From: a virus
Virus record (IMG/VR): IMGVR_UViG_3300021426_000095
Location: 1-64,000 of that record
Reading direction: 5' to 3' (one strand)
DNA: 64,000 nt
Every line of letters starts with the position of its first letter. Within the stretch, counting starts at the first letter, position 1. Both the position numbers and the translations under genes were made by a program. Below are positions 22,196 to 44,811 of this stretch, one piece after another. The notes under the pieces were generated by a model that was not told the origin of the DNA, ran no database searches, and saw only the letters and a program-made list of their open reading frames with translations.

Positions 22196-22227
22196 GAAAG
22201 GCCATAAGGTCGGTTCCTTTCTCTTTT
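22196..22227 (+). terminator. rho-independent terminator
   Basis: gaaagg-ccataaggtcggtt-cctttc + tctttt; a second weaker hairpin + T9 at 22275-22307. Confidence 0.55.
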
Positions 22228-22396
22228 AGCCGTAAGGCTAATAATACACGGCGATCCTGACTAAGCCGTGGGTTAAGGCGTTCGAAAGGGCGCCTTTTCT
22301 TTTTTTTATGCGGTGCGGCTGTCTAAAAAATTTTTAACGAATGTAAGACTTTCCGGTAAGCGGTATTAAATTTGCGGCGAATGGTAAGAATCGCTC

Positions 22397-22426
22397 TAGA
22401 CAGATGTAGTAAAGATATGATATAAT
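22397..22426 (+). promoter_or_regulatory. promoter of the TAGACA-N18-TATAAT class firing into the AT-rich block
   Basis: tctagaca 22395-22402, -10 22421-22426. Confidence 0.45.
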
Positions 22427-22429
22427 TAA

Positions 22430-22560
22430 TCTTAGAGATTAATTAATATATAAATATATTTTATATTATATAAATATTATATATTATATTCTTATATTTT
22501 ATATAGTTAATATATTATATATTTATATAATATATATGACATGACCTTTTTTCTTTCTTG
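22430..22560. repeat. extremely AT-rich (>90% A+T) low-complexity block: candidate DNA unwinding element
   Basis: taattaatatataaatatattttatattatataaatattatatattatattcttatattttatatagttaatatattatatatttatataatatatatgac. Confidence 0.5.
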
Positions 22561-22624
22561 GTACTTCTTTCTTTTTAACTAGTTATTGCGGCCCTAGTGG
22601 TCGTTTTTTTATTATAAAATAATA

Positions 22625-22680
22625 ATTGACAGGAACTTTATTTTATGATATAATAAAAGTGATATATATTTTTTACTAGT
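22625..22680 (+). promoter_or_regulatory. promoter TTGACAG-N17-TGATATAAT + conserved AAAAGTGATATATATTTTTT, copy 1
   Basis: -35 22625-22630, -10 22648-22653; near-identical 40-nt unit repeated at 22765-22815; the hairpin ctaaacgtg-actgccg-cacgtttag at 22699-22723 lies between the copies. Confidence 0.5.
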
Positions 22681-22764
22681 GTGTGCTTCACTAAACGTGA
22701 CTGCCGCACGTTTAGTTCAGCGAGTCAAGTTAAAAGATTTTTATATTAAAATAGTGCGGCGAGC

Positions 22765-22815
22765 TTGACAGCTGCATCATTTTATGATATAATAAAAGTG
22801 ATATATTTTTTTAAA
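22765..22815 (+). promoter_or_regulatory. promoter TTGACAG-N17-TGATATAAT + AAAAGTGATATATTTTTTT, copy 2
   Basis: -35 22765-22770, -10 22788-22793; followed by A/T runs. Confidence 0.5.
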
Positions 22816-23025
22816 AAAATTTTTTTTACTAAGATAAGTTAATTTTTTAATAGCTTAAAAATAAGCTTAAAAAATTCCTAAAAAGTTGTCTTGTCCCTTG
22901 ACAAATCTTATGATAAATAAGCTTTTTGCTGGGCAGAGAGCGCAGCCCAATATAGCTAAAATAAGCTTTCCGACCAAGTAATCAGGCCTTTTTTAAAATT
23001 GCGCAAATGCGGGCAAATCAAGTAG

Positions 23026-23057
23026 TTTTCCACAAAGTTATCCACAAGTTTTCCACC
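23026..23057 (+). promoter_or_regulatory. three head-to-tail DnaA-box-like 9-mers (TTTTCCACA, TTATCCACA, TTTTCCACC): oriC-like element
   Basis: 23026-23034 TTTTCCACA; 23038-23046 TTATCCACA (perfect consensus); 23049-23057 TTTTCCACC; spacing 12 and 11 nt. Confidence 0.55.
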
Positions 23058-23106
23058 ACTGGCCGCACATCTATCCTTCTATTGGGTGAGTTTGCGGATG
23101 TGAGAA

Positions 23107-23150
23107 AAATTGCCTATAGACCTGCGAGTACGACAGAAATTGCCTATACG
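23107..23150 (+). repeat. direct repeat GAAATTGCCTATA(g/c) x2
   Basis: gaaaaattgcctatagacc ... gaaattgcctatacgat. Confidence 0.4.
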
Positions 23151-23239
23151 ATTTTTGATACAGGCGTGCGGGCGAGCACGGCCGAGCTGCCTTATAAGCG
23201 CGTATAATGGTACATTTGTACGTTTGTTGCTTGCGCGGT

Positions 23240-23300
23240 AATTGTGGAGATTTTGTAGATTAGTTTTGGGATTTTTGTGGATTAGTTGTGGAGATTTTGT
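23240..23300. repeat. inverted-orientation DnaA-box-like repeats (TGTGGAGAT, TGTGGATTA, TTGTGGAGA) interleaved with TTTTGTAGATTAG repeats
   Basis: attgtggagattttgtagattagttttgggatttttgtggattagttgtggagattttgtgtagatta. Confidence 0.45.
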
Positions 23301-23339
23301 GTAGATTAAAAATTTCCCTTGACTACGTGGTATAATTTC

Positions 23340-23362
23340 GCTAGAATGCGCCGCATTCTAGC
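23340..23362. repeat. flank-conserved palindrome family, copy 1 (arms gctagaatgcg / cgcattctagc)
   Basis: aatTTCG-arm-c-arm-CGCTGAAAgg. Confidence 0.5.
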
Positions 23363-23380
23363 GCTGAAAGGTTTGGGCAA

Positions 23381-23409
23381 AAGAAAAACCCCGCCATTAC
23401 TGGGCGGGG
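23381..23409 (-). terminator. rho-independent terminator for 23441..23806
   Basis: minus strand: ccccgcc-cagtaat-ggcgggg + tttttctttt. Confidence 0.6.
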
Positions 23410-23440
23410 TTCTCGCCATTACTGGGCGATTAGGTGAGGA

Positions 23441-23806
23441 TTACACCAGCTTGTAGCCGACATAACGCCCCTTCACCTTTTCCACTTTCTCCACTTTACC
23501 AGCGGAGATAAGCACAGCCATGACTTTGGTGCATTTCTGCGAAGTCATAATCCCGTTTACGTGTTCCATAATCCACGAGGTCAGAACAGGCTCACCCTCG
23601 GGCATGACTTTAAGCACTTCGCCAGCCAAACGAATGTTCTCTTTGGCTGCCTTAGACGGCTCATTCGACTTTTCGCGGGGCTTAGTGATGCTTGCCAGCA
23701 TCTTGGCTGCGACCTCACGGGCGTCCTCACGGGCGAGGGTTTCATAATCGCCATTCACAACAGCAGTCAGGACTTCAGCGCGGGTGATGGTGGTGTTCTT
23801 AGCCAT
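23441..23806 (-). CDS. small winged-helix DNA-binding protein (paralog family)
   Basis: C-terminal LTSWIMEHVNGIMTSQKCTKVMAVLISAGKVEKVEKVKGRYVGYKLV is nearly identical to the C-terminus of 26375..26779; RBS aaaggag. Confidence 0.55.
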   Translation of the reverse strand: MAKNTTITRAEVLTAVVNGDYETLAREDAREVAAKMLASITKPREKSNEPSKAAKENIRLAGEVLKVMPEGEPVLTSWIMEHVNGIMTSQKCTKVMAVLISAGKVEKVEKVKGRYVGYKLV

Positions 23807-24075
23807 AATCAGGCTCCTTTCGGTTGCGGGTGAGATTCCGTTTTTTCTCTCCCTCTGACAGTTAATATATTACCAAATCTTAGTGCTGGGGTCAAGTAGA
23901 ATTTTGTCTTCATAAAGTCTCCATAATTCAGGATTTAAAACAAGCGTCTGACCTGCGGTTTTGGTGATCAATTTTTCCCATGCCGGCACAAAGGCAAATT
24001 CGCTTGATTCCGCCGGAATCAAGCGCTCAAACGTTTTAAAGAACAAAAAACCCGCCTGTTTTGGCGGGTTTTTGT

Positions 24076-24774
24076 TTAAAATTGCTCAAATCGCTTTGAA
24101 ATTTCGCGCCAATGCGGATTGTGCATGCAAATTTTAACAAAATCTGAATCAAACTTGCGCTTGCGGCGAATAATTGCTGCGAAAATGTAAGATTCTATCT
24201 CACAGTCTGCCCGTGCGGTGTGCTTTTCTTCAAAATCTGTATCATTTGTGAGGTAGCGATACACAGCTTCCGCACCTGTTTGCGGATGGCCTTTTGCGGT
24301 GGTCAAATTATGCTCAGCACAGAATTTTAGATAATTACGGCTATTGCAAAGGACGGAGAGAGCCATCGCCCAAATGTCCATAAATTTTACATCACCCTTA
24401 AAGAACTGGTCATAACCGAAGTATTGCGCCGTTTTAAGCAGATGAGATACGTCAAATGAAGCATTGTACGCGCACACGGTAGCGTTAAAAGCTTTGCGGA
24501 CACTGTTAATTGTGCGGCGAATCTCAGCAAACGGCATCACGGTAAAAGCATTTGAACCCTTGTACAGCTCAAAATAGTATTGAGCAATTTTAGTCTTAGT
24601 AAAGCAGTCATGAAACATATCAAGCGTCTCAGGATGGTTCATAAATTCCTCACACACAAAGCTACCCTCGGCAACCAAGTTGCCCTTGCGGTCAATCACC
24701 GTGTAGCCATAGTCAAAAACCAGGTCGTCGCACGTTTCGGTGTCAAGAATCATGAAGAACTTTTTGCTTGCCAT
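24076..24774 (-). CDS. DEDDh-family 3'-5' exonuclease (DnaQ / oligoribonuclease-like), paralog A
   Basis: Exo I ILDTETCD, Exo II YNASFDVSHL, Exo III HTARADCE. Confidence 0.65.
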   Translation of the reverse strand: MASKKFFMILDTETCDDLVFDYGYTVIDRKGNLVAEGSFVCEEFMNHPETLDMFHDCFTKTKIAQYYFELYKGSNAFTVMPFAEIRRTINSVRKAFNATVCAYNASFDVSHLLKTAQYFGYDQFFKGDVKFMDIWAMALSVLCNSRNYLKFCAEHNLTTAKGHPQTGAEAVYRYLTNDTDFEEKHTARADCEIESYIFAAIIRRKRKFDSDFVKICMHNPHWREISKRFEQF

Positions 24775-24804
24775 TTTGTTTCCTTTCTCTCTCTGACAAT
24801 TAGT

Positions 24805-24833
24805 ATATTACAGCATGTGCCGCACACAGTCAA
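24805..24833 (-). promoter_or_regulatory. island-type promoter (minus): TTGACT-N17-TAATAT + conserved ACTAATTGTCAGAGAGAGAAAGGAAACAAA leader
   Basis: -35 at 24833-24828, -10 at 24810-24805; equivalent units precede nearly every minus-strand gene of the island. Confidence 0.55.
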
Positions 24834-24915
24834 GTATTAATTTCAGGATTTTGTCTCTTCATATTTTCTTCACAATTGTTCTTGATCTTTCTCTTGGGGT
24901 GTGCAATGGTAAATT

Positions 24916-24940
24916 CGCTCGTTTGCGCCGCAAACGAGCG
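24916..24940. repeat. flank-conserved palindrome, copy 2 (arms cgctcgtttgcg / cgcaaacgagcg)
   Basis: aaATTCG-arm-c-arm-CGCTGAAAc; perfect 12-bp arms. Confidence 0.55.
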
Positions 24941-25115
24941 CTGAAACAAAAAACTCCCGCGTCCTGTGCGCAACAGGCTGATAGCGGGAGGGAGTCTATT
25001 CTTCGGGCACCTTACCATTCCCTTTTATTTGGCGGGGCTACCGCATTAGTAAACTGTTTAATCACCTCTTTTGGATTGTGGGCGGGGAATTTCACCCCGC
25101 CCTGTTTAGATTGGT

Positions 25116-25436
25116 CTAGAGCTTGTAGACCTTGACCTTTTCGGTCGTGGGAATTTCTTCCCACCCCATCGCCTTACAGATGGCGTTTGCCTTGGGCTTG
25201 GAGACTTCCAGAATCTCAGCCACGTTCGCAGCCTTGAAAGTCTCTTCGTCCCAGACCTCAGCGAACTTTTCACCGAGGGCGATGTTCGCATCACGCTTTG
25301 CCGTGTTAGCCTTGCGGGGACGCGGCTTCGTCACCTGAGCGTACATCTTCTCCAGAACCTCTACTGCTTCAGCATTCTCAACAGCAGCAATCGCGATTTC
25401 CAGAGCTTCCTTGCGGGTCATCTTCTTCTCAGCCAT
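25116..25436 (-). CDS. small winged-helix-like protein (paralog family)
   Basis: MAEKKMT...KPRPRK... resembles 21260..21628; its terminator ctcccgc...gcgggag + T6 lies at about 24955-25000 on the minus strand. Confidence 0.5.
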   Translation of the reverse strand: MAEKKMTRKEALEIAIAAVENAEAVEVLEKMYAQVTKPRPRKANTAKRDANIALGEKFAEVWDEETFKAANVAEILEVSKPKANAICKAMGWEEIPTTEKVKVYKL

Positions 25437-25611
25437 GTCACTTTCCTTTCTTTCGTGGGGAGTTTCTTTCTTTTTTCCTCTCCCCTCCTGACACTTAGTA
25501 TATTACACTACCCATACCCAAGAGTCAAGCATTAATTTCAGGATTCTTGCGGCTTCACAATTCCTTCACATTTGCGATGATCTTTTTGACTGGTGCGTGA
25601 TAAGGTAATTT

Positions 25612-25638
25612 CGCGTCATTTCCTCCGAAAATGACGCG
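25612..25638. repeat. flank-conserved palindrome, copy 3 (arms cgcgtcattt / aaatgacgcg, 6-nt centre)
   Basis: taATTTCG-cgtcattt-cctccg-aaaatgacgcg-gcc. Confidence 0.45.
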
Positions 25639-25700
25639 GCCATCAGAGTCAATTAAACTATTTTTAATTAAAAAATAAATGGGGCTATTGCCCCATTTAT

Positions 25701-26159
25701 TTACCACCTAGCATTAAGCCATTTACGAGTTTCTTTGTCATGAATTTTTACCGTTAGCTTTTTGTGATGTGAAATCCTCCAATCTTTGAACAGTGCAGGC
25801 TCTTCAATGGTATCAAAACCATTAGCTTTAATAATGACCTTTTTTACATCAACCCTCTCAAATAGTCCGACTTCATGAATAGCTACGACTTTGTACTTTT
25901 TGCCGTTAACCCTAATAAACTTTGGAACTACAATCGTTTTTGCGTGATGCTTAATTTTAGTCAGTGCGCAGATTTTACCAGTATACAGTGCATAATGATT
26001 GCCGTCTTTGTATTTTACAATTTGTGTAGCATTCGGTGGCAAATTAATATTTGCGGCGGTTAATTGTGATGCATGAGCCGTTGCGGGGAAAATAATCAAC
26101 GTGGCAAATAACATCAGGATGAACATCGAAATGAAATTACGATTATTAGAAGTGGTCAT
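25701..26159 (-). CDS. secreted or lipoprotein-like protein with signal peptide
   Basis: ATG 26159 after agaaaggga RBS; MTTSNNRNFISMFILMLFATLIIFPATAHA|SQ looks like a signal sequence. Confidence 0.5.
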   Translation of the reverse strand: MTTSNNRNFISMFILMLFATLIIFPATAHASQLTAANINLPPNATQIVKYKDGNHYALYTGKICALTKIKHHAKTIVVPKFIRVNGKKYKVVAIHEVGLFERVDVKKVIIKANGFDTIEEPALFKDWRISHHKKLTVKIHDKETRKWLNARW

Positions 26160-26295
26160 TTTGTTCCCTTTCTCTCTGTCCTTTTGACAAATACATAATA
26201 TCATATTCGTAGCTTAAATATTTCAGGATGTGACTTCCGCACATAATCTCCACATTTAGTTTTGATTTTTTCTCTTGGGTGTTACATAGTAATTT

Positions 26296-26321
26296 CGTTG
26301 GATTGCGCCCGCAATCCAACG
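26296..26321. repeat. flank-conserved palindrome, copy 4 (arms cgttggattgcg / cgcaatccaacg)
   Basis: aATTTCG-arm-cc-arm-CGCTGAAAgg. Confidence 0.55.
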
Positions 26322-26374
26322 CTGAAAGGAAAAGCCCCCGCCTTACGGCGAGGGCTAGAAGGGAAGGGGTCAGA

Positions 26375-26779
26375 CTAGACCAGCTCATAACCGACGTAGC
26401 GACCCTTGACCTTTTCTACACGGCGAGCCTTACCCGCGGCAATGAGAACTTCCATCACCTTTGTGCACTTCTGAGAGGTCATAATCCCGTTCACATGCTC
26501 CATAATTTCGGAGGTCAGCACGGGGCGGTCAGAGGGCATCCACTGGAGGACACGTGCGGCAAGCGCCTTGTTTTCCTTTGCGGCACGGCTCTCACCCTTC
26601 GGAGCCGTGGACTTCTTACCAAGCTGGGCGAGATGTGCCTTAGCCTTGTCCACGATTTCCGTGGGAGCATCCGTCTCTTCCAGCGCACGAATGGCAAATT
26701 CCATCATCAGCGCATTCGTAACCAGCGTCTCTTCGCCGTTGAGGGTGATGAAAACACGGGGAGCGTTCTTGGTAGCCAT
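26375..26779 (-). CDS. small winged-helix DNA-binding protein (paralog family)
   Basis: ATG 26779 after agaaagaagg RBS; the C-terminus is nearly identical to that of 23441..23806. Confidence 0.55.
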   Translation of the reverse strand: MATKNAPRVFITLNGEETLVTNALMMEFAIRALEETDAPTEIVDKAKAHLAQLGKKSTAPKGESRAAKENKALAARVLQWMPSDRPVLTSEIMEHVNGIMTSQKCTKVMEVLIAAGKARRVEKVKGRYVGYELV

Positions 26780-27032
26780 AGTGTACCTTCTTTCTGCCTT
26801 GCGGCGGTTCCTTGGGGAGTTCCTTTGCTCTCCCCTCCTGACACTTAGTATATTACTCCTGTCATCTCTCAGAGTCAAGCAAAATCTTTGAGAATTTTTC
26901 TCTCCATATTCTCTTCACAATTGCGGTTGTACCGGCAAACAGGCTTCTGACCTGGGGAAACGGGATCTTTCTGATAAGTTTAAATGTGAGCAATTTGGTT
27001 AATTTTTTCCCTGGTGTGTCTAAAGGGCAATT

Positions 27033-27057
27033 CGGTCGTTTGCGCCGCAAATGACCG
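27033..27057. repeat. flank-conserved palindrome, copy 5 (arms cggtcgtttgcg / cgcaaatgaccg, one G-T)
   Basis: caATTCG-arm-c-arm-CGCTGAAAgc. Confidence 0.5.
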
Positions 27058-27343
27058 CTGAAAGCAAATCGCCCCGCAGGCCTGACACGCAACGGGGCGA
27101 CAAGTATTTTCTTTAGAGGGCGCAGCAGGACGCATCCCCGCACCCTCACACTAGCGACTAGACCGCCGCGCTAGTGTTCTATTTTTTTAAAGTATCCCAA
27201 TAGTGTTTTGCAATATTTGGAGTTCTTTCTTCTTTTGGTAAATCTTTTTCCTCGGGAAGTGGAGAAAGTGCATACCAGATAAAGAGGGCGGGGAAGCCAA
27301 GTACCATAATGTAAGTAAAGATAGTTTGCAACATTTTAATCAC

Positions 27344-27616
27344 CTACCCACAGACCAAAATTGAAATTACCAGTCCAGCCGTGAGAGCAGTCAGACAAGC
27401 GTTTTTAATCTTGTCAGCTGCGGGACGCTCCAAGTAGAAATCACGACCAAGAGCAATCAGGTTTGCGACCAACCAAATGAGCTGTGCGACCAGTGCGAGG
27501 TCAAAGCGAACAAGCACCTGACCGATGATAGTCAAACCCAGACCCAAGAGCTGAAGATTCTCAACCAGCGTTACGTGCTTGCGACTTGCGAGTTTGTTAG
27601 CTTGCTTCTCAGTCAT
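27344..27616 (-). CDS. small membrane protein (2-3 TM)
   Basis: hydrophobic ORF with its own island-type promoter. Confidence 0.45.
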   Translation of the reverse strand: MTEKQANKLASRKHVTLVENLQLLGLGLTIIGQVLVRFDLALVAQLIWLVANLIALGRDFYLERPAADKIKNACLTALTAGLVISILVCG

Positions 27617-27938
27617 CTTAGTTCCTCTCTCTTTGATGATTTCATATTACCACCATTGCGAGATTGTGTCAAGAGATTTTTCAGACTTTTTTTATTGTTT
27701 AGTCTGAGGAAAGCTAAGGCGTGCATCTCTGACTGGTACCAAGGTCAGCCATCGCCACCCGACTGCGCCAAGTCCTAGTGTGCTCGGCTTGTGGTTGATT
27801 TACGCTTACCTCTCTTGACACTTAGTATATTACACTAATAAAGCGGTGTGGTCAAGTGTTAATTTCAGGATTTCTTTATCTTCACAGAATCTTCACAATC
27901 GCGGTTGATCTTTTCTGGCCCGGGTGTAATGGTAAAAT

Positions 27939-27963
27939 CGTGCGCTTGGCCCGCAAGCGCACG
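27939..27963. repeat. flank-conserved palindrome, copy 6 (arms cgtgcgcttg / caagcgcacg, centre gcccg)
   Basis: aaAATCG-arm-gcccg-arm-CCaaacaaaaac. Confidence 0.5.
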
Positions 27964-28013
27964 CCAAACAAAAACGCCCCGAAGGGCGTTTTAGAGAGAA
28001 AGGCCAATCTTGT

Positions 28014-28271
28014 TTAGTGCATGTCTGCCCATTCCTGAGCAGTGGTTTCAGTGGTGAACGGGCCAGCTACCGCGGTGTGATAAGTTTCCCAACCAAACAT
28101 TTCGTCATACACTTTTTCAACTTCTTCTACGAAGTAGGCCGCAGGCCAAACCTTCTTGCCGACTACCCTTGTCGGGTTTGCTGCTTCAACAGCTCCCAGA
28201 TGTTCTTTCATGTACCAATCACACTTGCAACCGAAGTCCCTAGCGTTTTTTTTGATTTCGTAGCGTTTCAT
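28014..28271 (-). CDS. hypothetical small protein
   Basis: ATG 28271 after gaaagagaaaggtaagaag. Confidence 0.45.
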   Translation of the reverse strand: MKRYEIKKNARDFGCKCDWYMKEHLGAVEAANPTRVVGKKVWPAAYFVEEVEKVYDEMFGWETYHTAVAGPFTTETTAQEWADMH

Positions 28272-28357
28272 CTTCTTACCTTTCTCTTTCTTTCTTACAA
28301 GGTAAGTGTACCATGAGGGGCTGACTTTGTCAACCCCTCTACGAAATCTCCACAAAA

Positions 28358-29041
28358 CTACTTCTTGCACTTAAGACGTTCTTTCCAGACGCGCTGACGG
28401 AAAACAGGCGAGCACATAGAAGTTTCAAGCTTTTGCTTGCGCTTAAACACCGCTTGCAAAATTTGTGCTTCAATTTCACAGTCTGATAGCGCGGTATGGT
28501 CTTCCTCAAACGTGGCGTTTTGCACAAGGTAGGAGTAGACGCTTTCAGCGCTGCAAGAAATATTACCCTTTTCAGTGATAAAACCTGAATCAATACACCA
28601 ACGGACATAATTGGAACTATCACAAATAATGTTAAGTGCCATGTTCCACAAGTCCCAAACCTCAGTATCTTCAGTGAAGAACTGCTCACCCATAAGGATT
28701 TTTGCATAATCATTAAGCACTTTTACATCAAATCCCGCATTGTAAGCGACCACAACAGCGTCAAACTTTTCAATGGTTTGAGTTGTGTACCAGTGAATAG
28801 TTTCAAAATCCATAATGGGCGCAGGCTCATTATCAAGATAAAAAGCAGCTTTGTGCTTAGAAAAAGAGTCACGCTTAATCAGATAGCGCAGCGTTTCATT
28901 TTGCATAATCTCAGCGACAAGACCGTTGAAGCGCTCTACGATTTGACCCTGACGGTCAACCAAAATCCAAGCTACGTCATAAGGCACGCGAGCATCTGCA
29001 ACCGTTTCAGTGTCAAGAACCATGTAATACTTCTTAGTCAT
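28358..29041 (-). CDS. DEDDh-family 3'-5' exonuclease, paralog B
   Basis: ATG 29041 after gaaaggaaa RBS; MVLDTETVAD, YNAGFDVKVL, HTALSDCE. Confidence 0.65.
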   Translation of the reverse strand: MTKKYYMVLDTETVADARVPYDVAWILVDRQGQIVERFNGLVAEIMQNETLRYLIKRDSFSKHKAAFYLDNEPAPIMDFETIHWYTTQTIEKFDAVVVAYNAGFDVKVLNDYAKILMGEQFFTEDTEVWDLWNMALNIICDSSNYVRWCIDSGFITEKGNISCSAESVYSYLVQNATFEEDHTALSDCEIEAQILQAVFKRKQKLETSMCSPVFRQRVWKERLKCKK

Positions 29042-29198
29042 TTCAGATTTCCTTTCTCTCTCTGACAAGATACATATTACACTAATGCGGTCATGCGGTC
29101 AACCACTTCACATAATCTCCACATTTCAGGATTGATCTGTCATAGTCCTGTACTAGTAATGCACGATTATTTTTCTCCAAGGCACATAAAGGCAAATT

Positions 29199-29223
29199 CG
29201 CCAGCGTGGGCCGCACGCTGGCG
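29199..29223. repeat. flank-conserved palindrome, copy 7 (arms cgccagcgtg / cacgctggcg)
   Basis: aaATTCG-arm-ggccg-arm-CTGAATG. Confidence 0.5.
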
Positions 29224-29256
29224 CTGAATGAGAAGGAGGGCTTTTGCCCTCCTGTT

Positions 29257-29457
29257 TTAAACTTCAATCTCTGCAAAGAGTTCATCAGTATCAGCATCCC
29301 AGATATCCGCATGACCTCCACCTAGCTCTTCAAGGCCACTTCGCACATCTTCGAGCATTTCTTTTTCAGCAGATGGCGTAGTGTAGGAAATCCAGTAATC
29401 GTGCCAGTGGTCGCATCCGTCTATTCCGTCAAATTCGATATTAAAACATCTAGCCAT
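29257..29457 (-). CDS. hypothetical small acidic protein
   Basis: ORF with RBS gaaaggaaagaaaatg. Confidence 0.45.
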   Translation of the reverse strand: MARCFNIEFDGIDGCDHWHDYWISYTTPSAEKEMLEDVRSGLEELGGGHADIWDADTDELFAEIEV

Positions 29458-29543
29458 TTTCTTTCCTTTCTCTTTACCTTACAGGTAAATTGTATCACAG
29501 AAAATAATAAAAGTGAAGACCCCTCACGGAGTCTTCACATTTT

Positions 29544-29735
29544 CTACACGTAATATTCTTTCCCAGAGGGCGCGACAATCTTAGCAACTTGTACACGGTT
29601 AACATAAACAAACTTTTTAGCTTCATCCATGACTTCAACAATACAAGTTGCTTTGTATTCCCGCACACAGGAGCGACCAATAAAATCTTCATACTTGAGT
29701 TGATAAACAACTTTCTTTGCGACTTTCTTTTTCAT
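29544..29735 (-). CDS. hypothetical small basic protein
   Basis: ORF with RBS agagaaaggagtaacc. Confidence 0.45.
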   Translation of the reverse strand: MKKKVAKKVVYQLKYEDFIGRSCVREYKATCIVEVMDEAKKFVYVNRVQVAKIVAPSGKEYYV

Positions 29736-29768
29736 GGTTACTCCTTTCTCTCTTGGACTACGTCCAGT

Positions 29769-30017
29769 TTACCAGAAGTCTACCACAATGTCAAGGTCAT
29801 TTTTGTCCTTCACATCTTCTCCACAATTGCGGAGTTGCGGCAGAAAATTTTCATCCAATGGCATGGTAATTTCTCCACCGACAAAATCTTCTGAATCGAG
29901 AACAATTTCTGCAGCATCAATACGGCGTTCAATTTCTTGGATTGCATCAGCCATACTATCAGCTTCAATAATAATGCGGCGTGCAAGAGTTTCTTTGTAA
30001 TCAAAAGTAAACTTCAT
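29769..30017 (-). CDS. hypothetical small acidic protein
   Basis: ORF; contains the CTTCACATCTTCTCCACAATTG motif within its coding sequence. Confidence 0.4.
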   Translation of the reverse strand: MKFTFDYKETLARRIIIEADSMADAIQEIERRIDAAEIVLDSEDFVGGEITMPLDENFLPQLRNCGEDVKDKNDLDIVVDFW

Positions 30018-30019
30018 AA

Positions 30020-30163
30020 TTAATTCTCCTGTTCATCTTCTGGTAACTCTTCATCTTCGTACCGATGAGTAAAGATATTTTCAATCTCTCCATTTTTTGT
30101 TTTTTGTTCAAAAAGGTCTTTCGATTTTTGGCTTTCTTCCTGAAGAAAATCAAACAGCGTCAT
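30020..30163 (-). CDS. hypothetical 47-aa acidic peptide
   Basis: ATG 30163 after gagaaaggattaatc; under 60 aa so not in the ORF track. Confidence 0.3.
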   Translation of the reverse strand: MTLFDFLQEESQKSKDLFEQKTKNGEIENIFTHRYEDEELPEDEQEN

Positions 30164-30180
30164 GATTAATCCTTTCTCTC

Positions 30181-30429
30181 TTACAAGAAGAGGATACCAT
30201 AAACACTAAACCAAGTCAAGATAAAAACAGCGATTGCGGCACATCCACACAAAAAAGCCACAATTCGCGCAGGCCAACTCAAAGCGTCATACATGTAGCA
30301 ATGTTCAACCCCTGTGCATGTTTCTACATCGCCAAGATAGGTAAACAGGTAAGCATCAGCCCATGCCCAAACAAAATAACACCCAACAGAGATGGTAATT
30401 GCCGCGCAAATAATAATAATTCCGTTCAT
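30181..30429 (-). CDS. small membrane protein
   Basis: ATG 30429 after aagagaaaggagagaaa; 3 hydrophobic segments. Confidence 0.45.
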   Translation of the reverse strand: MNGIIIICAAITISVGCYFVWAWADAYLFTYLGDVETCTGVEHCYMYDALSWPARIVAFLCGCAAIAVFILTWFSVYGILFL

Positions 30430-30545
30430 TTTCTCTCCTTTCTCTTTTGGATACATAGTATCACACTTAGTTTTAGGATGCAATACTCTTCACAGAATTA
30501 TCACATTCGAGCTAATTTTTTATCTACCTGCAATAGACGTAATTT

Positions 30546-30570
30546 CGCTCGCTTGCGCCGCAAGCGAGCG
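30546..30570. repeat. flank-conserved palindrome, copy 8 (arms cgctcgcttgcg / cgcaagcgagcg)
   Basis: aATTTCG-arm-c-arm-CTGGCAAG. Confidence 0.55.
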
Positions 30571-30595
30571 CTGGCAAGTTCCAGCGCTCTTTTTA

Positions 30596-30709
30596 CTACC
30601 TCTTGGAAATTTCTTCTTGCCAAGCTGCGATTTTGTCTTCATTTAGAAAGAGGGCTATCGCTGCGATGATTGTGAAAATGACGGCGATAATCAAATCAGA
30701 AATCAGCAT
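30596..30709 (-). CDS. 37-aa single-TM peptide
   Basis: ATG 30709 after ggagaaataaa; MLISDLIIAVIFTIIAAIALFL. Confidence 0.35.
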   Translation of the reverse strand: MLISDLIIAVIFTIIAAIALFLNEDKIAAWQEEISKR

Positions 30710-30719
30710 TTTATTTCTC

Positions 30720-30932
30720 CTAAGCTTTGAATTTATTTCCCCAGCCATCAGACAGATACAGCGGCTTGATAGTGTCTTCGCAATTCTCCATAAAGGCGAC
30801 AGCTTTGTCAACTGCTTCTGCAACGCCCAGGCATTTACCGAGGTCAGCTTGACGGGCAATCCACTCGTTTTTGTAGCTGTAGTAAGTCGCATAGTGGAGC
30901 TTGTAGTTGCCAATCCATTCCCGCTTTGCCAT
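30720..30932 (-). CDS. hypothetical small protein
   Basis: ATG 30932 after agagagaaaggaactcag. Confidence 0.45.
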   Translation of the reverse strand: MAKREWIGNYKLHYATYYSYKNEWIARQADLGKCLGVAEAVDKAVAFMENCEDTIKPLYLSDGWGNKFKA

Positions 30933-31074
30933 CTGAGTTCCTTTCTCTCTTTCTGACAAATAAATTGTACCATAAATAATTTTGACCGTCAAGAAAAGTT
31001 TCAGGATTACTTCTCTTCATAATTATTCCACAAGTGCGGAAGATCTTTTTCTCTGGTGCGCTTAAATGTAAAAT

Positions 31075-31099
31075 CGTCCGCTGTGGCCGACAGCGGACG
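31075..31099. repeat. flank-conserved palindrome, copy 9 (arms cgtccgctgt / acagcggacg, centre ggccg)
   Basis: aaAATCG-arm-ggccg-arm-CGGAGCC. Confidence 0.5.
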
Positions 31100-31134
31100 C
31101 GGAGCCTTTTTGACTCCGCGCCCCAAGAGAGAGA

Positions 31135-31341
31135 CTAAAACAGTCTTTCAAGGTCTGCCCAGCTGTAACCAATCGCGGGAGAGAGAATCAAGCGGCCAAT
31201 TCCAATTTGCCATTTAAACTGTTCTTCCGCTTCTTTCTTTGCGGCCAGCAGTTCTTCTTTGGTGTCAAAGAAATCAACATGCTGTTCGTACAAATCAAAA
31301 GTATCTTCGTCTACCCAGTCCCAAACAAGCATGAACTCCAT
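31135..31341 (-). CDS. hypothetical small acidic protein
   Basis: ORF with RBS agagaaaggaaaaatc. Confidence 0.45.
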   Translation of the reverse strand: MEFMLVWDWVDEDTFDLYEQHVDFFDTKEELLAAKKEAEEQFKWQIGIGRLILSPAIGYSWADLERLF

Positions 31342-31383
31342 GATTTTTCCTTTCTCTTAACTGACAAAGTCATTGTACCACAG

Positions 31384-31833
31384 TTAGGCAACACGGTCAA
31401 GCAGATTTTGAAGTTGCTTCATAATATCTTCACAAGCATTAATGGTTTCACCATGCCACGCCGCACGCACTTTTGCATTATCATCTACTAGAATAGAGTC
31501 TTTAATCTTTGCGGTTTGGTGCTTAGGTGTACCATACTTGACACAGTGGAATTCAGTCACGCAGGGAAGATTTTTAGCAATCCAATCTTTCTTAACTCTG
31601 CGAGTAGCTTTGTTAAATTCTTTGCTACCATGCATAGCAGACCACGTAACTACACCGATAACAAATCCAAGGGCTACAAACTCTTCAAGTAGAGCGTTCA
31701 AGTTACCCATGTCATACATAGCTTCGCCGCACGAATAGGCAGTTACGTCCTCAGAATTAAGGCGAGACTCCCAATCAGTTACAGAGTACAGGTCATAAAT
31801 TGTGCCGTCCATGTCAAAATAGATAGCTTGCAT
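31384..31833 (-). CDS. HAD-superfamily 5'(3')-deoxyribonucleotidase-like hydrolase
   Basis: motif I IYFDMDGTI (DxDGT); later ILVDDN. Confidence 0.6.
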   Translation of the reverse strand: MQAIYFDMDGTIYDLYSVTDWESRLNSEDVTAYSCGEAMYDMGNLNALLEEFVALGFVIGVVTWSAMHGSKEFNKATRRVKKDWIAKNLPCVTEFHCVKYGTPKHQTAKIKDSILVDDNAKVRAAWHGETINACEDIMKQLQNLLDRVA

Positions 31834-31962
31834 GTTTCTTCCTCTCTCTTGGTTGATTACATAATAGCATAATACACTATTGGTAGTTACAGGATTGTCT
31901 TACTTCACATAATCTCCACAAGTCCGGCGATCTTTTTACCCTAGTGCGTAAGGTGCTAATTT

Positions 31963-31988
31963 CGTTCGCGCAGGACCGTGCGCGAACG
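31963..31988. repeat. flank-conserved palindrome, copy 10 (arms cgttcgcgca / tgcgcgaacg)
   Basis: taATTTCG-arm-ggaccg-arm-CACGACC. Confidence 0.5.
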
Positions 31989-31998
31989 CACGACCTGT

Positions 31999-32196
31999 TT
32001 AGAAGCCAACTCGCCTAATTACGCGATAGCTACGCTTAGTAGGCCCGAAGATTTCTTCTACTACATCGCCATCCTGCCAGTCGGAGTCAAAGCCCCAGAA
32101 CTCCAAGGCTTCGGCCTCAGTGTTAAACCATGCGTACAGAAACCCGCCTGCGCGAGTGTGTCCGTCTACGTGGAAAATACTCTCAATGGTGGCCAT
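31999..32196 (-). CDS. hypothetical small protein
   Basis: ATG 32196 after agagagggg. Confidence 0.4.
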   Translation of the reverse strand: MATIESIFHVDGHTRAGGFLYAWFNTEAEALEFWGFDSDWQDGDVVEEIFGPTKRSYRVIRRVGF

Positions 32197-32346
32197 GTCA
32201 GCCCCTCTCTCTTCTCTCTTAACCTTACAAATACATAATACCATAGAGTGAGATATTTGTCAACTAATAGTTACAGGATAGAACTATCTTCACATAATCT
32301 ACATAATGCTGCCGGGTTTTTCTTGTAGTGCGTGTAAGCGATAATT

Positions 32347-32371
32347 CGCTCGCTGTGGCCCACAGCGAGCG
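32347..32371. repeat. flank-conserved palindrome, copy 11 (arms cgctcgctgtgg / ccacagcgagcg)
   Basis: taATTCG-arm-c-arm-GCCAGTCC. Confidence 0.55.
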
Positions 32372-32419
32372 GCCAGTCCCTTAAGCCAGCCACTCTGCTA
32401 GATTGCCTACAAGATTAGA

Positions 32420-32617
32420 CTAAGACTTTTTGACTTTTTTCTTCTTTCTCCTAATTGGTCTGATAATAAACCAGCCAATAATAATCCAGATAGGACCTAA
32501 GACAAACCAAGGAATGCACCATATTATTTCTTCTTTTGAACAGTTGTCTAAAATCATCATAATGCTAAAGCACACAGCACACAGATAGAGCCAGCTTAAA
32601 ATAATTGTTGTAGTCAT
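32420..32617 (-). CDS. small membrane protein with poly-Lys tail
   Basis: 2 TM + RRKKKKVKKS; promoter TTGACA-N17-TATTAT on the minus strand at about 32640-32700. Confidence 0.45.
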   Translation of the reverse strand: MTTTIILSWLYLCAVCFSIMMILDNCSKEEIIWCIPWFVLGPIWIIIGWFIIRPIRRKKKKVKKS

Positions 32618-32771
32618 TGTATCTCCTTTCTTCTAACAATTGCATAATACTGTATTTATTGTTTAGTGTCAACCTTTTCATAATATCTACATAAGTTTCA
32701 GGATATTAGAAACCATATTTAAATATGTATTTGAAAATTATTTTTGTTTCTAGTGTGCGTGAGAGATAATT

Positions 32772-32796
32772 CGCTCGTGTTGGCCCAACACGAGCG
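32772..32796. repeat. flank-conserved palindrome, copy 12 (arms cgctcgtgttgg / ccaacacgagcg)
   Basis: taATTCG-arm-c-arm-AGCGAGC; followed by the GC-rich low-complexity block 32797-32950. Confidence 0.5.
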
Positions 32797-33238
32797 AGCG
32801 AGCTCTACGAGAGAGCGTGTGCGTGCGCGTGAGAGAGTGTACGCACAAGACCGCACAAAGCTTGCGCTAAGCTTACACAAAGCCTGCGAAGACGTGCCAG
32901 CGAGCTAGACAGCCCGGCCGCATGAACTGTCCTCTTTTGGAGTGATGGGAAGGTGTGGACATTGTTGCCATTATTTTATCGGTCGAGCATAGAAGACTGT
33001 TGTGTTATTGCAATGATAAATAAAACTCCTACCAGGGGGTGTAATTTCAGGATTTTTTAATATTGATTTGTGAAATGTCTTTTGCCTCGCAATCCAAAGA
33101 ACGTACTTTAAATTTAAAAGAACGTAAATCAAAATTTCCTATATTAAAATTTTTTAATATATCAAATTTCGAGAAATCTATCCTCCTAAAAATTATATTA
33201 TATAGCTTAAAATTTTGTGTTTCTATCTAAAAAAGTCA

Positions 33239-33268: not shown

Positions 33269-33319
33269 AAGAATAGAAATAAAAAGATTTAAGCTAAGCT
33301 TAAATCGGAAAGGAAGCAA

Positions 33320-34417
33320 ATGACAAAAAATTTAGACTATTCACTTAAAACACCAAAAGAAAGAGCTAAGTGCGTTGAAGAAGTCATAGCATCCACTCCT
33401 AAAGAACAATTAACACAAACATATCTTAATTATTTAGGTGATTATATATTGTTTATTAGAGAAAAAGGACAAACAAAAGGACATAACCTTCTTACTAGAA
33501 ATAGAGAAACCGTAATTAAAAAAAGAGAAAAATCATATGAAGATATTGTTAACAGCTTAGAAGGTGGTGAAGATGCTTTTCATAATCTTATAAATAATGA
33601 TAAAAATCAACTATTAGATTATAAAGAAAAAGTATCAGAAGAAGAAGCATTAGCTGATCCAAGATTTCAAGAAAAAATGCGAACTATACAATCTCTTAAA
33701 AAAGCTTTTGATACAACAACTGATAGCTCTAAACGCTTTAAATTAAAACAACAAATCATTGAAACATGACAAGAAATTTATATTATTAAAGCATCATATA
33801 AACAAACAACCACAGGACGACTCTCTCCGCAAATGCGGCAAATGGGACATATAAATTTAGAAGAAAAAATTAAAGTACTTCCAAATGGTAAACTAGATAT
33901 TAAATCAACATTAACTCTTTTAAAACCAGAACATATTTCTTTCTTATTAAATTATTATGCTCAATTAAAAGAAGAAGTAGACGAAGATCTTAATAGCGAT
34001 TTGCGGTGATTACTTGTTGATTTAGAAGATTTAGTTCATAGAACTTTAACTGGACCAGATCAAACAGCAGTAAACAATGAAATTCTCTATGATTTAATTA
34101 TTTGAAAAATAGATGGATTAAAAAATAAAGAAATAGTTGAGCTTATGCGGCAAAGGCATGGCGTAGTTCATTCAGAACAGTATTATTCTACACTTTGACG
34201 TAAAAATATCCCTAATCTTTTAGCAAAACAAGCTCAAAAAGAATGGGTTATTTGGCATTTTTCTCAAGAAGAATATGGACATTGGAAAAAATGTACAAAG
34301 TGCGGCGAATGAAAAGTTGCAAGCCCTTATTTTTATGATCGTTCTCCAATTTCTAAAGATGGCTATTATCCTCAATGTAAGGAGTGTCGTTCTATTCGTA
34401 AAAAGAATAAAAAATAA
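33320..34417 (+). CDS. hypothetical protein (365 aa, C-terminal zinc ribbon) with about 9 in-frame TGA
   Basis: frame-2 reading continues from ATG 33320 through TGAs to TAA 34415-34417; the track shows it as fragments; CTKCGEW...CKEC at the C-terminus. Confidence 0.45.
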
Positions 34418-34431
34418 AGGAGGAAGGATAT

Positions 34432-37400: not shown

Positions 37401-37493
37401 AAAATTTTTTTTAGTATTTTTATCAAAATCTAATAATTCTTACCTCGTAAAATTTATATATATTAGAACGTAAGATGTTGAGGAGGTGGTTAA

Positions 37494-37853: not shown

Positions 37854-37863
37854 GAGGTGCGGT

Positions 37864-39447: not shown

Positions 39448-39449
39448 AA

Positions 39450-40805: not shown

Positions 40806-40834
40806 TTATAATTTTTAGAAGGAGGACAGGAAAT

Positions 40835-41386: not shown

Positions 41387-41406
41387 TTTGTGAGAGGAGA
41401 GAAAAC

Positions 41407-42468: not shown

Positions 42469-42550
42469 ATTAATTTAAATTAATATGATCGTTGGGGCAA
42501 CTATTATATTGATGGTTGCCCCACCTTCCAAGAGATACAAGGAGAAAACA

Positions 42551-43108: not shown

Positions 43109-43132
43109 AATTTTATACCAAAGGAGGTTCAA

Positions 43133-43911: not shown

Positions 43912-43923
43912 GAGCGGAAAAAT

Positions 43924-44802: not shown

Positions 44803-44811
44803 GGAGGAAAG

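What the first reader, a model, noticed from the sequence alone, without database searches (positions are those of the whole stretch)
23340..32796. Twelve palindromes with conserved flanks (aATTtCG ... CGCTGAAA) but completely different, co-varying 9-12 bp arms
One sits in each island intergenic region, for example cgctcgtttgcg-c-cgcaaacgagcg, cgttggattgcg-cc-cgcaatccaacg, cgctcgctgtgg-c-ccacagcgagcg and cgtgcgcttg-gcccg-caagcgcacg. Arms are perfect inverted repeats with a 1-6 nt centre, usually G/C-rich (gccgc / ggccc). Arm sequence differs in every copy while position and flanks are kept. That is selection on structure (hairpin or cruciform), not on sequence. They lack a U-tract, so they are not intrinsic terminators, and they lie between the upstream terminator and the -35. 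Possibilities include:
- attC-like single-strand recombination sites that define cassettes
- structure-specific protein binding sites
- RNA elements of antisense transcripts (a -10-like gATAAT often directly precedes the TTCG flank on the plus strand)
Basis: seen in the sequence. Interest (0 to 1): 0.8.

Follow-up and report, generated by a model that had tools for sequence, protein, structure and literature searches.

The report
Boundary hairpins of shuffled phage gene cassettes
Thirteen strictly base-paired DNA hairpins each mark the upstream edge of a repeated promoter unit in a gene island of a large rumen/gut phage, and related phages have swapped genes exactly at these hairpins; this resembles the promoter/stem-loop linkers of T4-like phages, but in a new phage group and with unusual features.

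Summary
The window holds 13 hairpins (12 perfect, 1 with a mismatch), not 12. All lie on the coding (minus) strand inside the 44% GC island, and none elsewhere in 64 kb. The arms are not "completely different": they vary around a consensus CGCTCGCTTK, with changes mirrored on the other arm.

In 38 distinct 25-nt copies from related metagenomic phages, 94.5% of cells pair (73% in shuffles). Stem positions 3-9 show no G·U-type variants. Orthologous stems diverge at 2.6% per site, against 11-16% for their flanks.

Each hairpin is the 5' edge of a conserved unit about 140-250 nt long (the shortest are about 115 nt): hairpin, AWWT, ATCCTGAAA starting about +67/+68, TGTGRAGA boxes, sigma-70-type promoter, SD, gene. 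A distant 31% GC relative keeps the same design.

Islands of related phages are mosaics. Junctions fall at the hairpin's 5' or 3' edge, within 0-5 nt, or at the start codon. One inserted cassette is flanked by two copies of the target hairpin.

The closest known system is the PeSL promoter/stem-loop linker of T4-type phages. It is not an attC site, a canonical terminator, an Rfam family or an antisense RNA.

Most likely these are strand-specific boundary or insulator hairpins that also act as recombination hot spots. The molecular function is inferred, not shown.

The parts
32772..32796 (-). Hairpin P13, the first of the island: CGCTCGTGTTGG-g-CCAACACGAGCG. No island gene lies upstream.
32347..32371 (-). 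Hairpin P12: CGCTCGCTGTGG-g-CCACAGCGAGCG.
31963..31988 (-). Hairpin P11: CGTTCGCGCA-cggtcc-TGCGCGAACG. It starts 10 nt after the g18 stop codon with no canonical terminator between. In L011 it is duplicated on both sides of an inserted cassette.
31075..31099 (-). Hairpin P10: CGTCCGCTGT-cggcc-ACAGCGGACG.
30546..30570 (-). Hairpin P9: CGCTCGCTTGCG-g-CGCAAGCGAGCG. It overlaps by 5 nt a second hairpin at 30566-30589.
29199..29223 (-). Hairpin P8: CGCCAGCGTG-cggcc-CACGCTGGCG.
27939..27963 (-). Hairpin P7: CGTGCGCTTG-cgggc-CAAGCGCACG.
27033..27057 (-). Hairpin P6, the only imperfect copy: CGGTCATTTGCG-g-CGCAAACGACCG, with A.C at stem position 6. Orthologues are perfect, with G-C in L001, L011 and L063 and A-T in L031 and L065.
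26296..26321 (-). Hairpin P5: CGTTGGATTGCG-gg-CGCAATCCAACG.
25612..25638 (-). Hairpin P4: CGCGTCATTT-tcggagg-AAATGACGCG. Its 5' edge is the right-hand junction of a recent cassette replacement relative to L065.
24916..24940 (-). Hairpin P3: CGCTCGTTTGCG-g-CGCAAACGAGCG.
24001..24025 (-). Hairpin P2: CGCTTGATTCCG-g-CGGAATCAAGCG.
23339..23363 (-). Hairpin P1, the last of the island: CGCTAGAATGCG-g-CGCATTCTAGCG. Only the first ~12 nt of a module follow it, and no gene.
24775..24915 (-). Example of the conserved promoter module that each hairpin heads (unit P3 to g2): AATTTACC..., GAGAAAGATC, tandem TGTGAAGA / TATGAAGA boxes, ATCCTGAAAT at 24841-24849, -35 TTGACT and -10 TAATAT at 24833-24805, SD, and ATG at 24774.
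23300..32900 (-). The island itself: about 22 small genes in 12 hairpin-bounded units, all on the minus strand, at 42-47% GC against 30-36% in the rest of the window.
24046..24073 (-). Example of a canonical intrinsic terminator (stem plus T-run) lying 20 nt upstream of hairpin P2. Roughly half of the window's units have such a terminator in front of the hairpin.

Best explanation
Each palindrome is the 5' boundary hairpin of a portable early-promoter cassette. The cassette runs: hairpin, AWWT, ATCCTGAAA starting about +67/+68 (its CCTG core at +69/+70), TGTGRAGA boxes, sigma-70-type promoter, SD. It is a functional analogue of the PeSL promoter/stem-loop linkers of T4-type phages, here in an SPbeta-like phage of rumen or gut Firmicutes. 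Shown: the stem is kept as a strictly Watson-Crick helix under purifying selection. The hairpin sits in fixed register with the downstream module and is co-oriented with transcription. Related phages have gained, lost, moved and replaced genes with junctions at the hairpin's 5' or 3' edge or at the start codon. Inferred: the hairpin acts in single-stranded nucleic acid of the sense strand. There it most likely blocks or attenuates transcription that escapes the upstream unit, so that each promoter is insulated. As a stable DNA hairpin it also stalls replication and promotes template switching or breakage at its base, which makes its edges the preferred joints for cassette exchange.
For: Anatomy. 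Specificity: there are 13 model hits, all on the sense strand and all in the island. Unbiased test: modules were located by an nhmmer profile that excludes the hairpin, and 75 of 77 distinct contexts have a hairpin directly upstream. Covariation: 94.5% paired against 73.3% in shuffles (0 of 500 reach it), 86 double-sided changes against 21 expected, and slid registers give 24-44%. Stem positions 3-9 have no one-sided variants. G.U makes up 4 of 490 stem pairs, against 18 of 217 in the canonical terminators of the same loci (Fisher p = 7e-7). Orthologous stems diverge 2.6% per site, against 10.6% upstream, 15.9% in the module and 8% in the loop; 7 changes are double and 3 single. Strand specificity: the central base is G on the sense strand in 43 copies and C in 9 (p = 2e-6), although loop inversions do occur. 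+1 is A in 49 of 49. The whole design recurs in a 31% GC relative whose exonuclease-like protein is about 23% identical. Cassette exchange: mosaic maps of 9 islands; 3'-edge junctions at L011:1599, L031:7986, L116:4682 and L031:6201; a 5'-edge junction at L011:3017, plus 23 pairs that share the hairpin and downstream module but not the upstream gene. In L011 a cassette is inserted between two copies of hairpin P11. A replacement in a 99.15%-identical phage is bounded by the ATG and by the 5' edge of P4. Adjacent hairpins are more alike than random (p = 0.0006 and 0.005 in two islands). Some units have no other hairpin between the stop codon and the next promoter. PeSL properties are taken from PMC2839356 and PMC4122927.
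Against: No transcription data exist. The tail is not a U-tract: +1 is always A and only about 3 T occur in the first 8 nt. The tail is no more U-rich in units that lack a canonical terminator, so classical intrinsic termination is unlikely. Roughly half of the window's units already have a good terminator just upstream, which makes an extra terminator look redundant. The near absence of G.U, the fixed ~68-nt spacing to ATCCTGAAA, and the conserved loop are more than an attenuator needs, and they hint at a specific protein partner. The number of independent precise junctions is small, about 5-6. Junctions at the 5' edge are partly expected simply because conserved sequence starts there. At least one deletion junction lies inside a module (L001), so ordinary homologous recombination also operates.
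Confidence: 0.45

Rival explanations
1. The hairpin is a strand-specific binding site for a phage protein. In RNA it would be a boxB/nut-like antitermination or processing signal. In extruded or single-stranded DNA it would be a hairpin promoter or activator site working together with the ATCCTGAAA motif that starts about 67-68 nt downstream.
For: The stem varies while the loop (xGGCx, with central G in 43 copies and C in 9) and the 3' flank are conserved, with A invariant at +1. The spacing to ATCCTGAAA is fixed regardless of promoter layout. The whole design is kept in the distant relative L107. Strict Watson-Crick pairing fits a DNA hairpin that must extrude from duplex DNA.
Against: No partner protein is identified, and no RNA polymerase gene was seen among the ORFs scanned in the window. 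SPbeta's YonO start-site region has no comparable hairpin. From my own knowledge, N4-type promoter hairpins have 5-7 bp stems and 3-nt loops, not 10-12 bp stems. The G+C-rich centre disfavours cruciform extrusion. A nut-like site would be expected downstream of a promoter, not upstream of it. The last hairpin, P1, has no gene to serve.
Confidence: 0.2
2. The hairpins are attC-like, structure-specific recombination sites. A dedicated recombinase or structure-specific nuclease cuts at the hairpin base to excise and insert promoter-bearing cassettes.
For: Junctions lie within 0-5 nt of the hairpin edges even when the two hairpins are unrelated in sequence. One inserted cassette is flanked by two copies of the target hairpin. 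Neighbouring hairpins are unusually alike. A loop is inverted on identical stems. Cassettes occupy different positions in different islands.
Against: No tyrosine or serine recombinase, HUH/RAYT or resolvase domain was found in the 40 window ORFs scanned, 10 of them in or beside the island, or in the gene lists of the flanking loci. The only related hit is a NUMOD homing endonuclease outside the island in L021-L023. attC-defining features are absent. Junctions also occur at the start codon and inside modules. Hairpin-stalled template switching explains the same junctions without an enzyme.
Confidence: 0.15
3. The hairpin has no function of its own. It would be a quasipalindrome kept perfect by replication template-switch 'correction' and carried along as part of the duplicated promoter module.
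For: Template-switch correction of quasipalindromes is a known mutational process (my own knowledge). It would give perfect arms, no G.U on either strand, symmetry reaching into the centre, and occasional loop flips.
Against: Orthologous stems change 4-6 times more slowly than their flanks. The hairpins stay G+C-rich in a 31% GC relative. One loop orientation dominates although flips occur. Position and register are fixed.
Confidence: 0.06
4. The hairpin is part of an antisense (+ strand) small RNA, or it is the operator of a dimeric sequence-specific repressor.
For: A -10-like TAAATT or GATAAT abuts the hairpin on the + strand. The element has dyad symmetry with a consensus half-site.
Against: No -35 lies at a proper spacing except at P1. 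No conserved structure or terminator follows on the + strand. Changes in one arm are mirrored in the other, which an operator does not require. Flanks and loop are asymmetric and follow the sense strand.
Confidence: 0.04

Closest known systems
PeSLs (promoter-early stem-loops) of T4-type phages (Arbiol et al. 2010, PMC2839356; Comeau et al. 2014, PMC4122927)
   Same: Both are repeated intergenic composite motifs combining a stem-loop, a strong sigma-70-type early promoter and an SD. They flank small orphan genes in a hyperplastic region. Insertions, deletions and replacements between related phages map to the motifs, and one PeSL crossover was mapped in the stem-loop's loop.
   Different: The phage lineage and host differ: SPbeta-like and probably Clostridia. 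PeSL stem-loops sit at variable positions within or next to the -35/-10 boxes, contain G-T pairs and polyG/polyC, and serve as the terminator. Here the hairpin is at a fixed position 63-173 nt upstream of the -35. It is strictly Watson-Crick, with CG clamps and a strand-biased xGGCx centre. It often follows a separate canonical terminator. It heads a longer module with extra conserved boxes. Junctions pile up at the hairpin edges.
Integron attC sites and gene cassettes
   Same: Both are variable-sequence, structure-conserved hairpin sites at the boundaries of mobile single-gene cassettes arranged in one orientation.
   Different: There are no R''/L''-L'/R' core sites, no extrahelical bases and no unpaired central spacer. 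The stems are short and perfect, 25-27 nt in total. Every cassette has its own promoter and terminator. No IntI-type integrase or attI was found in the sequence available.
Rho-independent (intrinsic) terminators and tandem terminators
   Same: Both are G+C-rich hairpins downstream of genes on the sense strand. Four of the 13 copies pass a lenient terminator scan.
   Different: The tail starts with 1-3 A and has few T. G.U is tenfold rarer than in the canonical terminators of the same loci. The ends are fixed, the centre is conserved, and the register follows the downstream promoter module rather than the upstream stop codon.
DNA-hairpin promoters of phage N4 virion RNA polymerase
   Same: Both are small hairpins with a conserved loop and flank but a variable stem, upstream of early genes, acting in one strand of DNA.
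   Different: The stems here are 10-12 bp rather than 5-7 bp. No vRNAP-like gene was seen. A host-type promoter lies downstream of each hairpin. Nothing shows that transcription starts at the hairpin.

Membership tests
PeSL (T4-type promoter-early stem-loop cassette) | A repeated intergenic motif that contains a sigma-70-type -35/-10 early promoter followed by an SD and the start codon | tested here: met
   TTGAC(N17)TAATAT-type promoters and AGGA-type SDs occur in the units; nhmmer finds 195 module copies in the fetched loci.
PeSL (T4-type promoter-early stem-loop cassette) | A stem-loop placed within, overlapping or immediately next to the promoter boxes, serving as terminator for the upstream gene, with G-T pairs tolerated | tested here: not met
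   The hairpin lies 63-173 nt upstream of the -35. A separate canonical terminator is often present. G.T pairs are almost absent.
PeSL (T4-type promoter-early stem-loop cassette) | It flanks orphan genes in a hyperplastic region, and indels or replacements between related phages map to the motif | tested here: met
   no families for most island proteins; mosaic islands and their junctions.
PeSL (T4-type promoter-early stem-loop cassette) | Measured terminator and promoter activity, and formation of cassette mini-circles | not testable with these tools
   These are experimental properties.
PeSL (T4-type promoter-early stem-loop cassette) | It occurs in T4-type myoviruses of Gram-negative hosts | tested here: not met
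   The backbone's Pol III alpha is closest to SPbeta YorL at 38% identity. YonG_N lies next to the island in relatives.
Integron attC | Conserved R''/L'' and L'/R' core sites (RYYYAAC ... GTTRRRY) at the two ends | tested here: not met
   The ends are CG(C/T)... and ...(G/A)CG, with flanks (T)TTCAG and AWWT.
Integron attC | An imperfect hairpin with extrahelical bases and an unpaired central spacer | tested here: not met
   478 of 490 stem positions are Watson-Crick, and no bulges are seen.
Integron attC | An adjacent IntI tyrosine recombinase with attI and Pc, and promoterless cassettes | tested here: not met
   No recombinase domain was found in the 40 window ORFs scanned, 10 of them in or beside the island. 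Each cassette has its own promoter. The rest of the genome was not available.
Integron attC | The sites coincide with cassette boundaries | tested here: met
Intrinsic terminator | A G+C-rich stem-loop immediately followed by a U-tract | tested here: not met
   The stem criterion is met. The tail is A(1-3)T(2-4), with +1 = A in 49 of 49 and a mean of about 3 T in the first 8 nt. Only 4 of 13 pass a lenient scan.
Rfam RNA families | A match to any curated covariance model | tested here: not met
   only sub-threshold hits, all on the canonical terminators.
N4-type DNA-hairpin promoter | A 5-7 bp stem with a 3-nt loop, recognised by a virion RNA polymerase, with the start site just downstream | tested here: inconclusive
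   The stems here are 10-12 bp. From its length, an N4-type polymerase gene would exceed any ORF in the window. SPbeta's YonO start-site region lacks such a hairpin. Start sites cannot be mapped here.
REP / RAYT elements | Sequence-conserved imperfect palindromes with a GTAG-type guide tetranucleotide and an associated HUH transposase | tested here: not met
   The arms vary with compensation, no GTAG flank is present, and no Y1/HUH domain was found.

The most novel reading that the evidence does not exclude
The hairpins are the working sites of a structure-directed cassette-mobilisation system in phages. Promoter-bearing gene cassettes would be cut or copied exactly at the base of a DNA hairpin and inserted at another hairpin, regardless of its sequence, with duplication of the target hairpin. 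That would be an integron-like gene-capture array without a known integrase, resting either on a new structure-specific enzyme or on programmed template switching.
Probability: 0.18. Interest if true: 0.85.

Novelty: new variant of a known kind. Interest (0 to 1): 0.6.

Why it matters
PeSL-type linkers have been described only in T4-like phages. Finding the same logic in an unrelated Firmicutes phage lineage suggests that portable promoter/hairpin linkers are a general, convergent way for large phages to keep a fast-turnover gene nursery.

This version is built differently. It has a strictly Watson-Crick hairpin, a strand-biased loop and a fixed register with the downstream module. These hairpins give sharp landmarks: junctions at their edges, a duplicated target hairpin and a flipped loop. 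Those features make the recombination mechanism directly testable, in particular whether it is enzyme-driven or caused by template switching.

The constrained loop, the invariant +1 A and the fixed spacing to ATCCTGAAA also point to an unidentified protein partner.

Tried and rejected
- **Rfam:** a search of the island found nothing above threshold.
- **Phage records:** megablast of the island against GenBank phages gave no match.
- **Motif scans of IMG/VR:** the ATCCTGAAAYT...CTTGAC scan returned seven stretches, none with the hairpin class. The -10/leader scan found only the contig of L001.
- **Long-range helix:** I tested pairing of the 5' flank TTTCAG with CTGAAA in the motif at about +68 (CCTG at +69/70). 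The flank varies freely while the motif stays constant, and RNAalifold predicts only the hairpin.
- **Terminator compensation:** tails are no more U-rich where a canonical terminator is missing.
- **RNA-strand assignment from G.U polarity:** there were 4 sense and 5 antisense cases, so this was uninformative and argues against a purely RNA-level constraint.
- **Recombinase search:** none was found in the window.
- **SPbeta repressor link:** the SroF operator is a 26-bp AT-rich, non-palindromic box and is unrelated.
- **YonO promoter link:** there is no G+C-rich hairpin in the yonN-yonK gap of SPbeta.
- **Segment-wise homology patterns:** these were partly confounded by the shared hairpin consensus and by paralogous module similarity. 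I therefore relied on nucleotide-level junctions.

Full report
**Observation.** A scan of all 64 kb for perfect short-loop hairpins finds 12 G+C-rich palindromes between 23339 and 32797 that begin and end with CG. A thirteenth, at 27033-27057, has one mismatch. All genes of this stretch lie on the minus strand. The stretch is a 42-47% GC island in a 30-36% GC genome. A covariance model built from 38 distinct copies finds exactly these 13 sites, all on the minus strand and all in the island, and nothing else below E = 0.1.

**Anatomy.** Read on the coding strand, each unit has the following order:
- the upstream gene;
- often a canonical terminator with a T-run;
- (T)TTCAG in about half of the copies;
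- the hairpin: CG, 8 variable pairs, a centre reading xGGCx, the mirrored 8, then CG;
- an invariant A, then (A/T)(A/T)T;
- a G/A-rich stretch ending in GATC;
- two TGTGRAGA boxes 11 nt apart;
- ATCCTGAAA;
- a TTGAC-N17-TAATAT promoter;
- a strong SD and the start codon.

The CCTG core of ATCCTGAAA sits 69-70 nt after the hairpin (so the motif starts at about +67/+68) in about 45 units. This holds whether the -35 lies at +83/84, +97-113 or +155. The island has 12 hairpin-bounded units and 13 hairpins. The first hairpin has no island gene upstream, and the last has no gene downstream. Internal promoters inside units lack a hairpin.

**Context.** The backbone is a large phage with Pol III alpha (38% identical to SPbeta YorL), NrdD, RecJ and many tRNAs. 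Most island proteins have no family. The exceptions are two paralogous DEDDh-exonuclease-like proteins and a nucleotidase-like protein. Relatives come from rumen or gut metagenomes and from Clostridia or Erysipelotrichaceae MAG contigs.

**Relatives and an unbiased test.** Protein-anchored retrieval gave nine full or partial islands of the same type: L001, L011, L031, L053, L063, L065, L067, L115 and L116. It also gave many fragments. All carry the same hairpin class, always in the sense orientation. To avoid circularity I located units with an nhmmer profile of the downstream module only. Of 77 distinct contexts, 75 have a hairpin directly upstream: 58 are perfect over 10 bp and 11 have 9 of 10. 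Six of the remaining eight are perfect stems with 12-18 nt loops. A distant relative, L107 (31% GC, exonuclease-like protein about 23% identical), keeps the whole design, from terminator T-run through G+C-rich hairpin with a YGGNC-like loop, A-T tail and TCCTGAAA to the promoter. Intermediate relatives L025, L027 and L028 keep the TGTGRAGA boxes. In place of the hairpin they have other elements, such as a sequence-conserved AAAAGTTAACC..GGTTAACTTTT palindrome.

**Constraint on the stem.**
- On 38 distinct 25-nt copies, 94.5% of cells pair, against 73.3% in shuffles (0 of 500 reach it).
- There are 86 double-sided changes, against 21 expected. Slid registers give 24-44% pairing.
- Stem positions 3-9 show only full Watson-Crick switches, with no one-sided variant.
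- Over 49 distinct copies, 478 of 490 stem positions are Watson-Crick. G.T mismatches number 4 on the sense strand and 5 on the antisense strand, so neither strand is favoured.
- Canonical terminators in the same loci have 18 G.U in 217 pairs (Fisher p = 7e-7).
- Orthologous stems diverge 2.6% per site, against 10.6% upstream, 15.9% in the module and 8% in the loop. Seven changes are double-sided and three single-sided.

The arms are therefore not "completely different". They vary around CGCTCGCTTK under strong selection for exact pairing. The lack of wobble pairs suggests a constraint at the DNA level or on both strands, and template-switch correction of quasipalindromes may help maintain it.

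**Strand specificity.** The flanks are asymmetric. The central base is G on the sense strand in 43 copies and C in 9 (p = 2e-6). This holds even though loop inversions do occur: L011:4440 (TGGCG) and L031:4018 (CGCCA) have identical stems and exactly reverse-complementary loops. A preferred orientation despite flips implies that one strand is read.

**Cassette exchange.** The islands are mosaics. The clearest nucleotide-level junctions are these:
- In L011, the module-g8-g7-terminator cassette, which sits between P8 and P7 in the window, lies between two copies of P11. Homology breaks at the first base after one copy and within 3 nt before the other.
- L031 lacks the g4 cassette exactly from the 3' edge of P5 to the 3' edge of P4.
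- L116:4682 and L031:6201 give two further 3'-edge junctions.
- In 23 pairs the hairpin and downstream module are shared but the upstream gene is not.
- L065 is 99.15% identical to the window, yet g4 is replaced by another gene. The junctions are at the ATG and 3-4 nt before P4.
- One deletion, in L001, has its junction inside a module, so homologous recombination also acts.
- Adjacent hairpins are more alike than random pairs: p = 0.0006 in L011, 0.005 in L031 and about 0.09 in the window and in L001.

If crossovers fell uniformly over a ~155-nt linker, a 6-nt window would catch about 4% of them. Four of roughly six non-trivial events at the 3' edge is far more than that. This is my own rough estimate from a small sample with possible detection bias.

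**What it is not.**
- It matches no Rfam family.
- It is not an attC site: the core sites, extrahelical bases and integrase are absent, and the cassettes carry promoters.
- It is not a canonical terminator. The tail starts with A, has few T, and is not compensated where a terminator is missing.
- It is not an antisense RNA: no + strand promoter geometry exists except at P1, and no + strand structure is conserved.
- It is not a dimeric operator, because arm changes are mirrored.
- It is not the SPbeta SroF box.
- It is not linked to the YonO start region of SPbeta.

**Interpretation.** The best-supported reading is that the hairpin is the 5' boundary element of a portable early-promoter linker. 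This is functionally analogous to the PeSLs of T4-type phages, which combine a stem-loop, a strong early promoter and an SD, flank orphan genes and mediate modular shuffling. Three steps are shown: selection on pairing, fixed register and orientation, and junctions at the hairpin. Two steps are inferred. First, the sense-strand hairpin insulates each promoter from read-through. Second, as a stable DNA hairpin it provokes template switching or breakage at its base.

Three rivals remain. One is a strand-specific protein site, either boxB-like in RNA or a DNA-hairpin promoter or activator site. The second is a true structure-specific recombination site. The third is a functionless, self-correcting quasipalindrome. 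As a PeSL member it fails on stem-loop position, on G-T tolerance and on lineage, so I file it as a new variant of that kind and not as a member.

**Limits.** There are no expression data and no complete genome. The number of independent recombination events is small, and the hairpin copies share ancestry, so the binomial and Fisher p-values overstate independence.

Noticed in passing
window 33300-52000 (+ strand) and tRNA at 49729-49825: ARAGORN calls a 97-nt tRNA with anticodon TCA, labelled 'SeC'. Reading TGA through nearly doubles the long stop-free frames in this probable late-gene block (2601 to 4984 codons; longest 363 to 659). It changes nothing in the 52-64 kb replication block, and TAG read-through has no effect in the late block (TAA read-through gives a smaller rise, to 3953 codons). 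This suggests TGA recoding of late genes by a phage suppressor tRNA.
   Followed up: partly
window 22200-23330: This is a 1.2-kb non-coding zone where + strand and - strand genes converge. It holds an extremely AT-rich stretch with AT-only palindromes (22420-22860), tandem DnaA-box-like 9-mers including a perfect TTATCCACA near 23040, and TGTGGAGA boxes in the orientation opposite to the promoter modules (23243, 23287). It looks like a candidate replication origin or regulator sink.
   Followed up: partly
window 23800-32700, minus strand, two per promoter module: Tandem TGTGRAGA boxes lie 11 nt apart upstream of the -35. There are 18 matches in the window against 3.6 expected, almost all on the island's sense strand. 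The motif resembles the complement of a DnaA box, and it is conserved in distant relatives that lack the hairpins (L025, L027). It is probably the operator of a shared early-gene regulator.
   Followed up: partly
window 24841, 25536, 26221, 27863, 29124, 30999, 31887, 32271, 32696; also 33045, 53912, 57308 (minus strand): The ATCCTGWAA motif occurs 16 times against 2.1 expected. It sits at a fixed position relative to the hairpin (CCTG at +69/70) and close to the -35. It also occurs on the minus strand at 53912 and 57308, close to the nrdD and Pol III alpha genes outside the island.
   Followed up: partly
window 30566-30589 versus hairpin P9 at 30546-30570; also L011:4421-4444 and L001:6042-6065: A second 9-11 bp hairpin overlaps the boundary hairpin by 5 nt, so the two structures are mutually exclusive. 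On the + strand it is followed by a T-run and is terminator-like there.
   Followed up: no
window 25643-26155 versus L065:9596-9770: A phage 99.15% identical over 8.2 kb carries a different small gene in place of g4, the signal-peptide protein at 25701-26159. This is a very recent cassette replacement. The neighbouring ~1.5 kb is only 92% identical, which suggests a recombinant patch.
   Followed up: yes
window 23441-23806, 26375-26779, 25116-25436 (minus strand) and 21260-21628 (+ strand): Several small paralogous proteins lie in and next to the island. They have a helical N-terminus, a basic KPR linker and a conserved C-terminal domain. Homologues next to the island in L025 and L027 carry weak MarR hits. 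They may be DNA-binding regulators.
   Followed up: no
L027:4700-15100: A related island (exonuclease-like protein 51% identical) lacks the co-varying hairpins. Instead it has 13 copies of a sequence-conserved palindrome AAAAGTTAACC-NN-GGTTAACTTTT and many TTTACAnnTGTAAA repeats in its intergenic regions. It appears to use a different regulatory repeat set in the same kind of island.
   Followed up: no
window 6349-8110: A NadR-like protein (AAA_28 plus a cytidylyltransferase-like domain) is followed by a PnuC-type nicotinamide mononucleotide transporter. Together these are phage-borne NAD-salvage genes, and they lie next to a cluster of 10 tRNAs at 161-6178, one of which has an undetermined anticodon (5393-5465).
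   Followed up: no
L021:6419-6967, L022:4811-5359, L023:4681-5229: A NUMOD1/NUMOD3 homing-endonuclease gene is inserted in the backbone about 3 kb beyond the island's end in some relatives. It is absent at the corresponding place in the window.
   Followed up: no
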